In this document: piece by piece, positions 45,001 to 47,716 of the stretch
Numbering within the stretch: the stretch's first letter is position 1
Layout of the letters: every line of letters starts with the position of its first letter
Virus record (IMG/VR): IMGVR_UViG_2925929528_000002
Span: 1-47,716 of that record
Source of the DNA: a virus
Lineage: Duplodnaviria; Heunggongvirae; Uroviricota; Caudoviricetes
DNA length: 47,716 bases
Reading direction: 5' to 3' (one strand)
Made by a program: the position numbers

Positions 45001-47716
45001 GCGATGGAAATTGCGTATCTTTGCGCTGCAAGGGTATCTGATGTTCTTAAAATGAACTGGAATCAGATTCTTGATAAAGGAATTTTCATACAGCAAGGTA
45101 AAACTGGTATTAAACAGATCAAAGCCTGGACTGAGCGTCTTAATGCGGCTGTGGATATTTGCAGGGAATGGGGACAGGATGGCCCTGTTATCAGGACAAT
45201 GTATGGTGAGCGTTATTCATACAAGGGATTTAATGAAGCATGGAGAAAAGCGAGAAACGCGGCTTCTGAAGAACTTGGTAGGCCACTTGATTGTACCTTC
45301 CATGATCTAAAGGCTAAAGGGATCTCGGACTATGAAGGGTCATCTAAAGAGAAACAAATATTTAGTGGGCACAAGACTGAATCACAAGTCATTGTTTATG
45401 ATAGAAAAACACGCGTAACACCCACGTTAAATAAAAATTAAAACCTAAGTGCGCAGACGCGCACTTATACAAATAAATCAGGGAAAGCTGTATTTAAGCA
45501 GTTCATAAACTTTTCAAGATCTTTAGGAGTTTCTTGTTCATGTAACCATTTATCACAAACTTCATTAACATAAAGTTTTGCTTGTCCTACTTTCAAAGAT
45601 TTATTATCTCGCCCGCTTTTATCTGCAGGGTTATAATGCAAACTTAAAATGAAATTCCTAACTTTAACTGGTTTACCTTTTTTCGACACTATATCATAAT
45701 CAAAAAAACACTCATTCCCAGTGAAAGCTTTAGTTATTGGATTCTTTTTAAAATGGAATCGGCATTCTTCGAGTCTAGTAGAAATTGCATTATATTTCTC
45801 ATAATCACCAGAGCTAAGATAGCTGAACCAATTTTTAAAATAACCTGAAGAATCTAACTTTTGGTGATAAATAAAGAAACCAGCATATTTTTCATCAGTA
45901 ATATATCTTGTTACAAGTTGTAACATCCCTTCAAATACACCATTATACGAATTCCCTCTTTTTGCTTCAGCGAGCCAAGTAAAACTCTGTCCACGATCTT
46001 GAACTGTGATATCTACGGAGCCGTTTGATTTTGTTTGTTCAGAAGCGTTGTACCCAACCCCCTTGAGAAATAAAACTAATAAATTAGTAATTTTATCTTC
46101 ATCATCCGAATAATACTTATCTGCTGTTTTTTCAATATTCTTAATTGCCTTATTAATATCAGCGTAAAGATTTTCTACAAACAGATCTTCATCGAATGGT
46201 TTTAAGTTAGCCAGTGCAGCCAAATCGGCAAGTGTAATATTACTAAGGATATTATTTGACATTTAATATACAATAGAATGAAATGTTATTAACATCGAAA
46301 TCGTCTATTTCGCGTCCAGAATCTAAGCTGATTGGAGCAATGCCTTTAATTAATGCTTTGTAATAACACTCAGCTGAAATAGGAACTTCTTCATTATCAA
46401 AATCATAGTAACAATAGTTTATGTTGAATAATTTAGAATGTGCTCCACAGAAATAGCGAACTAGTTTTAATAAATCCGCATCAGATTCACATCTAGATGC
46501 TTCACGAAGCACTTTAATCGGATAATAACTTTTATCAACATTATTTTTAATGTAACTCAGTACATTATTGAACAAATAAACATCTCTTTCAGAGAAAACC
46601 CCCTGAAGTTCATTCAATAGCATCCTTTGTTTAGACAAAAGCATATTTATATCCTTTAGTCTATCATTTTCTTGATATGACATTTTCAATCAAACCATTT
46701 AATGATAATGTATCTTCAGGAAAGTCAATATAAAATTCACCACAAAAACTATCATCTAACCATGATTTTTTATTAGGATCTAAACCCAACTCGGTAAAAT
46801 CCCCATTATTTCTATAAAACCTGACGGCTACTGAACGTGGCGAATAGATATCATTTCTCTTTGTGTTTTTAATTTCAACATCTCTAGCCTCATAAGTTGG
46901 ATCTTTACGGCCAATAACATTTGCATCAGAACCGGTGTTCGACCCTACATAAATTATTTGGACAGCCCTGCCAAATTGTTTGTCAGCAATAATGTTAGTA
47001 ATCGCATTATAAAAGTTTAATGATTGAAAGACAACATTGTAATTATTCTTAACAAAAAGATCATAAAACTCATTACGTAATGCAAGAAGTGCTTTAGCAG
47101 CCTCTCTCTTACCTAAAAGCTTAGGAATACGATATTCTACTCTGTTTTTATTATTTGGTACAAATGCTGTAACAAAATGCTGTTGAGGCGTGTATGACAG
47201 ACCTAAGCCACGACTTCCTTTAATTTTCACACTATAAATATAAGAATATATAAAAGCTAAACCATCCCCTGTATCCAGTAATTTTGTTAAAAAAAATCCT
47301 TTGATATTTTTTCCAAGAGAGTTACCGTCATACAGTCTTTTAGGATATAAACTTTCATACCGAGACTCAGGAACACTAGATTTAAAAATTTTGTGGACAA
47401 ATGGCTGGAAATTTGGGTCAATTGTTTCATCAATAGAGTAATAATTACTTCCTGAAATTATTACTCTGTCAATCATTTTTTCAAGCGAACTAACGGTTGC
47501 ATTGGGGAATGCCGCAGTTGGATTCTGGATTGATGCCTCAATAGCAGCCAAGCTCGCATCCATACCTCCTTTGACAGGAGGAAAACCATACACTGTCGCA
47601 ATTTGAGAAATGTACGAATATAAATTCGTTTGCTCGAGGGCCGCAACTAATTCGGATATTGATTTGCTGCTATTGTTGCTAGTGAGATGTGCGACAGATG
47701 CGCCAGATGTGTTCAT

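What the first reader, a model, noticed from the sequence alone, without database searches (positions are those of the whole stretch)
45465..47716. AT-rich three-gene operon of unrecognised proteins next to the prophage integrase: candidate novel system
Three overlapping minus-strand ORFs (at least 350 aa, 145 aa, 265 aa) in visibly AT-rich DNA, convergent with int and ending at a shared hairpin (45447-45466). Tight overlaps suggest one operon. I recognise none of the proteins; the last has a possible PD-(D/E)xK nuclease core (VDITVQD ... EAK). Composition, position beside int and a putative nuclease are typical of horizontally acquired cargo, and an anti-phage defence role is one possibility. 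The operon may be truncated by the window edge.
Basis: partly seen in the sequence, partly recalled or inferred. Interest (0 to 1): 0.75.

Follow-up and report, generated by a model that had tools for sequence, protein, structure and literature searches.

The report
Divergent DS-21-type prophage defence operon
A three-gene cassette carried as optional cargo between a prophage's integrase and its attachment site is a distant relative of DS-21, an anti-phage system validated in 2026 that is built around a restriction-type nuclease and whose mechanism is still unknown.

Summary
Three overlapping minus-strand genes (A 350 aa, B 143-145 aa, C 265 aa) lie in DNA of 29-36% GC and end at a terminator hairpin shared with int. 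Gene A is complete; only the promoter lies beyond the window edge.

Pfam, NCBIfam and PADLOC recognise none of the three. Protein C is a PD-(D/E)xK nuclease. Its model (pLDDT 82) matches BamHI, OkrAI, BstYI and BglII best, and E55, D84, E99-A-K101 and Q115 are invariant.

The trio is not an orphan. Family profiles link all three proteins, in the same order, to DS-21 (DeWeirdt, Mahoney and Laub, Science 2026): A 91%, B 91%, C 99.6% hhalign probability. DS-21 gave about 4.5 log10 protection against phage Bas1. No mechanism has been published for it.

The trio is genuine cargo. It lies inside 65-bp att repeats, and close relatives with a 97% identical int lack it. Relatives ride on lambdoid, P2/186-like, P4-like and PM2-like elements.

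Most likely it is an anti-phage system in which A (possibly RdgC/TBP-like) and B control nuclease C. I class it as a new, deeply divergent member of a known but unexplained kind, of moderate interest.

The parts
46664..47716 (-). Gene A, 350 aa, complete. Remote homologue of DS-21A. Residues 90-233 are modelled as a beta-alpha-beta4-alpha (TBP/RdgC-like) domain; the rest is modelled poorly.
46252..46683 (-). Gene B, 143 aa from the ATG (145 aa from the TTG at 46689). Remote homologue of DS-21B. It overlaps A by 20 nt and C by 11 nt.
   Evidence: It hits phrog_11490 at E 0.0021, the PHROG family that DS-21B matches at 1e-62. hhalign with the deeper B profile against the DS-21B family gives 91.3%, E 9.4e-7, over 92 columns. 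The joint alignment is collinear, with G123 invariant.
45465..46262 (-). Gene C, 265 aa: PD-(D/E)xK nuclease, the presumed effector. Homologue of DS-21C, with extra C-terminal helices.
45446..45467 (.). 9-bp stem, 4-nt loop hairpin between the convergent int and gene C. It acts as an intrinsic terminator for the trio (a T-run follows on the minus strand) and probably also ends int transcription.
45409..47716 (.). Extent within the window of the cargo insertion relative to empty-slot prophages. The left boundary is about 30 bp before the int stop codon. The right boundary is outside the window, about 45-60 bp upstream of the A start codon.
   Evidence: The similarity of 30 E. coli int genes (95-98% identical) stops at query position 1183, which is window 45408. 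In the empty slots int lies 112 bp from tRNA-Ser. Boundary alignment.
44455..45441 (+). Context: prophage tyrosine integrase, convergent with the trio; the DUF4224 gene lies just upstream at 44226-44453.
   Evidence: Pfam Phage_integrase 1.9e-9; DUF4224.

Best explanation
The trio is a prophage-borne anti-phage defence operon belonging to a deeply divergent sister clade of DS-21.

Shown:
- Three translationally coupled genes lie on an accessory cassette of about 2.4 kb inside the prophage, between attL (tRNA-Ser) and int. They are convergent with int and have their own terminator.
- C is a restriction-endonuclease-fold protein with an intact E...D...ExK...Q catalytic set.
- A, B and C are each homologous, in the same order, to DS-21A, B and C, and DS-21 protects E. 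coli from phages when cloned.

Inferred:
- The operon is expressed in the lysogen from its own promoter in the 140 bp between the tRNA and gene A.
- A, B and C assemble into a complex in which the nuclease is held inactive or untargeted.
- A and B act as the sensing and DNA-targeting part. A has a possible RdgC/TBP-like DNA-binding fold plus a helical N-terminus. B is small, and the DS-21 authors' HHpred gives its DS-21 counterpart a winged-helix region.
- On infection by a sensitive phage, a phage DNA form or a phage protein licenses C to cut DNA. This stops phage replication directly or by killing the cell.
For: Homology to a validated system:
- hhalign, family against family: A 91.4%, B 91.3%, C 99.6% (earlier versions).
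- Shared PHROG families for B and C.
- Identical gene order and similar sizes: 350/143/265 aa against 365/140/211 aa.
- DS-21 phenotype in Table S7 of PMC13092281: Bas1 4.48 log10, Bas11 2 log10, and small plaques with Bas3, Bas9, Bas67 and T3; marked as replicated.

Nuclease: fold and invariant catalytic residues.

Cargo status:
- A 65-bp att repeat brackets the E. coli EC7 prophage with the trio inside.
- The slot is empty in prophages with a 95-98% identical int.
- GC is 0.29-0.36 against about 0.5 for the neighbours.

Carriage by unrelated mobile elements, always as a trio:
- lambdoid int-att ends (L001, L002, L007, L046);
- between CI and int of P2/186-like prophages (L045, L049);
- a P4-like satellite (L004);
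- the tail-fibre end of a prophage (L003);
- a PM2-like Vibrio prophage next to int (L056).

Own expression signals: a promoter-like site upstream of A in L001 (TTGAGA-16-TATCAT, 10 of 12) and a terminator.
Against: - No experiment exists for this clade. Identity to DS-21 is only 13% (A), 13% (B) and 26% (C), and function can drift at that distance.
- The A and B links rest on profile-profile scores of about 91%, not on unambiguous matches. A does not hit the DS-21A PHROG family.
- PADLOC 2.0 finds nothing for the window proteins.
- The roles proposed for A and B are inference. The A model is poor (pLDDT 50), A shows no sequence similarity to RdgC, and B-family members do not hit DUF5939 or any HTH model in Pfam.
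- DS-21 itself has no published mechanism, no catalytic mutants and no gene deletions.
- In the three empty-slot relatives examined, no other defence system occupies the position, so this is not a demonstrated defence hotspot.
Confidence: 0.65

Rival explanations
1. A constitutive, methylase-independent restriction complex. A and B are DNA-recognition subunits that direct C to a feature present on some phage DNAs but absent from host and prophage DNA, such as a base modification, a particular end or a replication structure. This would resemble type IV restriction (McrBC, Mrr). There would be no infection-triggered switch and no cell death.
For: C resembles orthodox type II enzymes most closely (BamHI, OkrAI, BstYI, BglII), and McrC is also among the hits. 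The operon contains no methyltransferase. A's possible RdgC/TBP-like fold and the authors' winged-helix call for DS-21B suggest DNA binding. DS-21 gives a strong drop in plating efficiency on a narrow set of phages, as restriction does.
Against: There is no NTPase or known modification-reading domain (SRA, YTH, McrB-N and the like) in any of the three proteins. DS-21 did not restrict the heavily modified T-even phages in the listed data. The A model is of low confidence.
Confidence: 0.2
2. A toxin-antitoxin-like or addiction module. C is a toxic nuclease neutralised by B and/or A. Its main role would be to stabilise the prophage or satellite, with phage exclusion as a side effect through abortive infection.
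For: The genes are tightly overlapping, with a small middle protein next to a nuclease. The cassette is always on mobile elements. The Vibrio element also carries a MazF-like toxin, so such elements do carry toxin-antitoxin cargo.
Against: Three conserved components, including a 350-aa protein, are more than a toxin-antitoxin pair needs. None of the proteins matches a known antitoxin or toxin family. Prophages with a nearly identical int are stable without the cassette. DS-21 was scored as defensive, not as a toxin-antitoxin system, by its authors.
Confidence: 0.1
3. A phage life-cycle function, not defence. The trio would be a recombination or DNA-processing module (an RdgC-like DNA binder plus a nuclease) that the temperate phage uses for its own replication, recombination or excision.
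For: The best fold matches of A are RdgC and phage 'recombination-associated' proteins. C is a nuclease. The cassette sits next to int.
Against: The cassette is dispensable: close relatives of the prophage lack it. The prophage already has its own RdgC (window 40015-40932, Pfam 2e-35), which shows no sequence similarity to A. The same trio occurs in unrelated phage types and in a satellite with different replication strategies. It is transcribed against the early-left operon and from its own promoter. The relative DS-21 protects cells when cloned without any phage.
Confidence: 0.05

Closest known systems
DS-21 (working name TOXO; WP_001532221.1, WP_021552536.1, WP_001557682.1), DeWeirdt, Mahoney and Laub, Science 2026 (PMC13092281)
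   Same: It is a three-gene operon in the same order with similar sizes (365/140/211 aa against 350/143/265 aa). All three proteins are homologous by profile-profile comparison. The catalytic residues of C are identical. Both are carried by prophages. The A and B proteins have no assigned function.
   Different: The two are very distant: 13%, 13% and 26% identity. Window A does not hit the DS-21A PHROG family. Window C has about 50 extra C-terminal residues. B in the window's close relatives (8 sequences) has four invariant cysteines that DS-21B lacks. DS-21-type trios sit between the Q antiterminator/DUF968 genes and the lysis genes of lambdoid prophages, whereas window-type trios sit at int-att or CI-int positions. 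This clade has not been tested experimentally.
Orthodox type II restriction endonucleases of the BamHI/BglII/BstYI/OkrAI group
   Different: Sequence identity is only 10-15%. There is no cognate methyltransferase in the operon. C needs, or at least always travels with, two partner proteins. C also has additional N- and C-terminal regions.
PD-(D/E)xK effectors of multi-component defence systems (Lamassu LmuA/Cap4-type, Hachiman HamA, McrC, NucC; PADLOC candidate PDC-S54)
   Different: The partners that define those systems are absent: there is no SMC/ABC ATPase (LmuB), no helicase (HamB), no AAA+ GTPase (McrB) and no cyclic-oligonucleotide signalling. Window C itself does not reach the PADLOC threshold.
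RdgC (recombination-associated DNA-binding protein) and TBP-like fold proteins
   Different: The model is of low confidence (pLDDT 50) and TM-scores are about 0.3. There is no Pfam RdgC hit and no sequence similarity to the prophage's own RdgC. This is a structural lead only.

Membership tests
DS-21 anti-phage system (DeWeirdt et al. 2026) | Three co-directional genes in the order large (about 350-365 aa), small (about 140 aa), PD-(D/E)xK nuclease | tested here: met
   The window has 350/143/265 aa with 20- and 11-nt overlaps. DS-21 has 365/140/211 aa. The same order was found in 35 DS-21-type viral loci and in 10 window-type loci.
DS-21 anti-phage system (DeWeirdt et al. 2026) | Third protein homologous to DS-21C with intact catalytic residues | tested here: met
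   hhalign gives 99.6%, E 1.2e-24, over 178 columns. Both proteins fall in phrog_9664. E55, D84, E99, K101 and Q115 are invariant in 30 sequences.
DS-21 anti-phage system (DeWeirdt et al. 2026) | Middle protein homologous to DS-21B | tested here: met
   The link is weak with shallow profiles (E 0.03-0.1). With the deeper profile it reaches 91.3%, E 9.4e-7, over 92 columns. phrog_11490 is the best of only three PHROG matches of window B at E up to 1 (E 0.0021), and it is the family of DS-21B. Met, but by remote homology only.
DS-21 anti-phage system (DeWeirdt et al. 2026) | First protein homologous to DS-21A | tested here: met
   hhalign gives 91.4-91.8%, E 7-9e-7, over 233-235 collinear columns. 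Shared YP, QxF, GR and CxR motifs. Window A does not hit phrog_12777 directly. Met, but by remote homology only.
DS-21 anti-phage system (DeWeirdt et al. 2026) | Protects cells against phage when expressed from its native promoter | not testable with these tools
   This needs cloning and plaque assays. It has been shown only for DS-21 itself.
PD-(D/E)xK nuclease superfamily | alpha-beta-beta-beta-alpha-beta core with D on strand 2 and (D/E)xK on strand 3 | tested here: met
Type II restriction-modification system | Cognate DNA methyltransferase encoded with the endonuclease | tested here: not met
   None of the three proteins has a methyltransferase domain. The flanking genes are int and tRNA-Ser.
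Lamassu / Hachiman / McrBC (multi-component systems with PD-(D/E)xK effectors) | Partner NTPase (SMC-like LmuB, HamB helicase, McrB GTPase) | tested here: not met
   A and B have no P-loop or helicase domain and no PADLOC hit.
RdgC family | Sequence match to Pfam RdgC (PF04381) | tested here: not met
   Neither A nor 17 relatives hit Pfam RdgC. hhalign against the prophage RdgC gives E 0.54. There is only a fold-level resemblance, on a low-confidence model.
Type II toxin-antitoxin module | Toxicity of one component neutralised by a cognate partner | not testable with these tools
   No match to known toxin or antitoxin families. Testing this requires expression experiments.

The most novel reading that the evidence does not exclude
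A and B are a previously undescribed kind of infection sensor. In this reading, an RdgC/TBP-like DNA-encircling or DNA-bending protein (A), together with a small winged-helix-like adaptor (B), reads a phage-specific DNA structure such as free ends, replication or recombination intermediates, and licenses a BamHI-like nuclease. The system would then achieve self/non-self discrimination with no methylation, no NTPase and no nucleotide signalling. This principle would differ from all characterised nuclease-based defences.
Probability: 0.25. Interest if true: 0.75.

Novelty: new member of a known kind. Interest (0 to 1): 0.45.

Why it matters
DS-21 was published only as one line in a validation screen, with no mechanism. 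This finding shows that DS-21 is one branch of a wider three-gene family. A second, very divergent branch is common in prophages of Klebsiella, Salmonella, E. coli, Pantoea and Vibrio, and current annotation tools do not detect it.

The deep divergence is useful in itself. The few residues that survive in A (Y124-P125, Q179, G249-R250, R278), the single invariant glycine in B, and the full catalytic set in C are direct targets for mutagenesis.

The family moves between five unrelated kinds of mobile element as an intact trio. This argues that all three genes are needed together.

If the RdgC/TBP-like reading of A holds, the family could reveal a way of recognising phage DNA that needs no methylation, no NTPase and no nucleotide signalling.

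For Klebsiella phage therapy, this is one more prophage-borne barrier that defence finders currently miss.

Tried and rejected
- Pfam, NCBIfam and PADLOC 2.0 gave nothing significant for the three proteins. Pfam on 18 A-family and 17 B-family members gave only noise.
- Sequence searches of the PDB, with single sequences and with profiles, gave nothing.
- Structure prediction of A with an 8-sequence alignment gave a poor model (pLDDT 50).
- The afdb50 fold library was not available.
- I looked for the second att copy and for tRNAs inside the window and found none, because the window stops 140 bp short of the tRNA. This was resolved using the E. coli EC7 genome.
- A literature search by RefSeq accession found nothing. 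The accessions and motif strings are also absent from the DefensePredictor supplements, so this clade was not among the tested units in the parts of the tables that are held.
- The new P4-hotspot systems of the NAR 2026 survey (Crouga, Bandua, Aernus, Toga, Reve, Hailong) were considered because a relative sits in a P4-like satellite. Their described compositions do not match.
- An RdgC relationship for A was tested by sequence and rejected at that level.
- The idea that the int-att slot is a swapping hotspot for other defence systems found no support in the three empty-slot relatives examined.
- No follow-up paper on DS-21 was found.

Full report
**1. The observation**

The region holds three minus-strand ORFs:
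- A: 46664-47716, 350 aa.
- B: 46252-46689, 145 aa from a TTG. RefSeq annotations of identical proteins use the ATG at 46683, giving 143 aa.
- C: 45465-46262, 265 aa.

A and B overlap by 20-26 nt, and B and C by 11 nt. GC is 0.29-0.36 over 45400-47600, against 0.42-0.59 in the 7 kb before it. The hairpin is at 45446-45467 (9-bp stem, 4-nt loop). On the minus strand it is followed by a T-rich tract and is scored as a terminator. In a 66-nt context the fold is -14.6 kcal/mol, z = -2.7. The integrase at 44455-45441 (+) is convergent with the trio (Pfam Phage_integrase).

Gene A is not truncated. Its ATG is the last codon of the window, and a 98.7% identical locus in E. coli EC7 and all close homologues start at the same methionine. 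Only the promoter region lies outside the window.

**2. Where the trio sits**

In E. coli EC7 (L001) and in a second, 79% identical version found in 14 other complete E. coli genomes (L002), the order is prophage early genes, DUF4224, int, C, B, A, tRNA-Ser(CGA), mtfA. The 3' end of the tRNA faces gene A, 138 bp away.

The far end of the EC7 prophage, next to yodB, carries a tRNA remnant. A 65-bp stretch of the tRNA-Ser 3' part is repeated exactly at both ends. The trio is therefore inside the att-delimited element, between attL and int.

Thirty other complete E. coli genomes carry an int that is 95-98% identical up to about 30 bp before its stop codon. In the three I inspected, int lies 112 bp from the same tRNA with nothing in between. 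The alignment places the right edge of the insertion about 45-60 bp upstream of the A start codon. So the trio is an optional cassette of about 2.4 kb that brings its own terminator.

A promoter-like site (TTGAGA-16-TATCAT, 10 of 12) lies between the tRNA and A in L001.

The exact B and C protein sequences, and a 99% identical A, occur in Klebsiella and Raoultella genomes, so the window probably comes from that group.

**3. What the proteins are**

None of the three gives a significant hit in Pfam, NCBIfam or PADLOC 2.0, or by sequence against the PDB. The families are small. The word-indexed search of 5.8 billion proteins found 15 (C), 7 (A) and 7 (B) clusters, all from Enterobacterales and all annotated 'hypothetical'. 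The exhaustive profile search for A found 21 representatives among 1.84 billion.

C:
- It has invariant E55-D56, D84, E99-A-K101 and Q115.
- Its model is good (pLDDT 82, pTM 0.80) and has the canonical alpha-beta-beta-beta-alpha-beta core, with those residues on strands 2 and 3.
- The PD-(D/E)xK proposal is confirmed.

A:
- It was modelled poorly (pLDDT 50). Only residues 90-233 reach about 75. They form a beta-alpha-beta4-alpha unit.
- Foldseek against viral models independently retrieves phage 'recombination-associated' (RdgC-like) proteins at probability 0.84-0.93, but with TM-scores of only about 0.3.
- A shows no sequence similarity to the prophage's own RdgC.
- I treat the RdgC/TBP-like fold as a lead, not a result.

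B could not be modelled because the prediction jobs were exhausted.

**4. The link to a known system**

The supplementary tables of DeWeirdt, Mahoney and Laub (Science 2026, PMC13092281) list DS-21 (working name TOXO). It consists of three hypothetical proteins of 365, 140 and 211 aa, in that order, on an ECOR contig, and is scored as defensive and replicated.

The authors' HHpred annotations for DS-21 are:
- A: a weak SAP/HeH motif (probability 0.64).
- B: DUF5939 (0.94) and a winged-helix region (0.8).
- C: a DpnII-MboI-type PD-(D/E)xK domain (0.96).

DS-21 is not named in the main text of the paper (0 occurrences), and the sections and figure legends I read give it no mechanism, mutants or deletions.

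DS-21A, B and C are the PHROG families phrog_12777, phrog_11490 and phrog_9664. Window C hits phrog_9664 at 1.5e-44. Window B's best PHROG match is phrog_11490, at E 0.0021. Window A has no PHROG match better than E 0.28.

To test homology more sensitively, I did two things.
- I built DS-21-type family alignments from 35 IMG/VR loci, all of which keep the A-B-C order.
- I enlarged the window-type families with trios recovered around distant A relatives.

Family-against-family hhalign then gives the following.

| Component | Probability | E-value | Columns |
|---|---|---|---|
| A | 91.4% | 8.9e-7 | 233 |
| B | 91.3% | 9.4e-7 | 92 |
| C | 99.6% | 1.2e-24 | 178 |

Pairwise identity between the window proteins and DS-21 is 13%, 13% and 26%. 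Across 30 sequences of both clades:
- C keeps E55, D84, E99, A100, K101 and Q115 invariant.
- A keeps P125, G249, R250 and R278 invariant, with Y124, Q179, F181, R204, E309, P314 and K316 nearly so.
- B keeps only G123.

Three independent homologies in the same order make a chance resemblance very unlikely. The trio is a deeply divergent sister clade of DS-21.

**5. What DS-21 does**

In Table S7 the cloned DS-21 reduced plating of Bas1 by 4.48 log10 and of Bas11 by 2 log10. It gave smaller plaques with Bas3, Bas9, Bas67 and T3. From my own knowledge of the BASEL collection, which I did not check here, Bas1-Bas13 are T1-like Drexlerviridae.

**6. Mobility**

Window-type trios are always intact and always sit on mobile elements:
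- int-att ends of lambdoid prophages (window, L001, L002, L007, L046);
- between the CI repressor and int of P2/186-like prophages (L045, L049);
- a P4-like satellite with primase and Ogr/Delta (L004);
- the tail-fibre end of a Pantoea prophage (L003);
- a 14.8-kb PM2-like (Vinavirales) Vibrio prophage, directly downstream of its integrase (L056).

DS-21-type trios sit in the Q antiterminator-to-lysis moron position of lambdoid prophages. Movement as a unit between unrelated elements, low GC and presence/absence polymorphism are what is expected of defence cargo. They argue against a phage life-cycle role.

**7. Mechanism**

Shown:
- an accessory, self-contained operon;
- a catalytically intact restriction-fold nuclease;
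- homology to a validated defence system.

Inferred:
- The three translationally coupled products form a complex.
- C is the effector.
- A and B provide sensing or DNA targeting and keep C from attacking host and prophage DNA.

I give 0.65 to 'anti-phage system with C as nuclease effector'. Within that, I cannot decide between two sub-models:
- a triggered switch (favoured);
- a constitutive, methylase-independent restriction complex of type IV style (0.2).

The absence of any NTPase, methyltransferase or signalling enzyme sets the family apart from Lamassu, Hachiman, McrBC and CBASS-NucC, whose nucleases are the nearest functional analogues. An addiction (toxin-antitoxin) role (0.1) and a phage recombination role (0.05) are less likely, for the reasons given under the rival explanations.

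**8. Novelty and verdict**

The rest of the reading (operon, nuclease, cargo, probable defence) does stand.

What is new here is a second, very divergent and widespread clade that PADLOC 2.0, Pfam and NCBIfam do not detect. It also provides a short list of residues conserved across both clades and a structural lead for A.

I class it as a new member of a known but mechanistically unexplained kind, with interest 0.45. The most novel reading not excluded is that A and B form a new kind of DNA-structure sensor that licenses a BamHI-like nuclease. I give that a probability of about 0.25; it would be of high interest if true.

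Noticed in passing
window 42082-43182 (+): A solitary DndB-like protein (Pfam DndB 1.9e-42; PADLOC DndB 4e-35) lies in the prophage early-left operon. It is flanked by a ParB-HTH protein (41321-42109) and a dATP/dGTP pyrophosphohydrolase (43175-43918). No dndACDE genes are nearby. It could be another defence or counter-defence accessory gene.
   Followed up: partly
window about 580-1930: An ISKox3 (ISL3-family) insertion sequence, 99.9-100% identical to copies in E. 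coli genomes, is inserted near the tail-fibre end of the prophage, next to a DUF6236 protein at 2468-3349.
   Followed up: partly
window 7713-9041 (+): A 442-aa ORF on the strand opposite to the adjacent ORFs (1068 aa at 4404-7610 and 180 aa at 9072-9614, both minus strand) has no Pfam or PADLOC match. It may be a second moron or cargo gene.
   Followed up: no
window 40015-40932 (+): The prophage encodes its own RdgC (Pfam 2e-35). RdgC is also the best fold match of protein A of the trio, but the two show no sequence similarity.
   Followed up: yes
L056 (PQ189315.1) 11223-13498: A 14.8-kb PM2-like (Vinavirales) Vibrio cyclitrophicus prophage carries the same trio (339/140/276 aa) directly downstream of its integrase, which is about 15% of its genome. 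It also carries a MazF-like toxin gene at 354-773.
   Followed up: partly
L001 14456-14545 and L052 about 13890-13955: The att site of the EC7 prophage is a 65-bp exact repeat of the 3' part of tRNA-Ser(CGA). The remnant at the far end is annotated 'tRNA-OTHER' in RefSeq.
   Followed up: yes
window 46252-46683 (protein B): Four cysteines (C67, C81, C93, C140) are invariant in the eight close relatives of B. They are only partly kept in more distant window-type B proteins and are absent from DS-21B. This may be a metal site or disulphides specific to this sub-branch.
   Followed up: no
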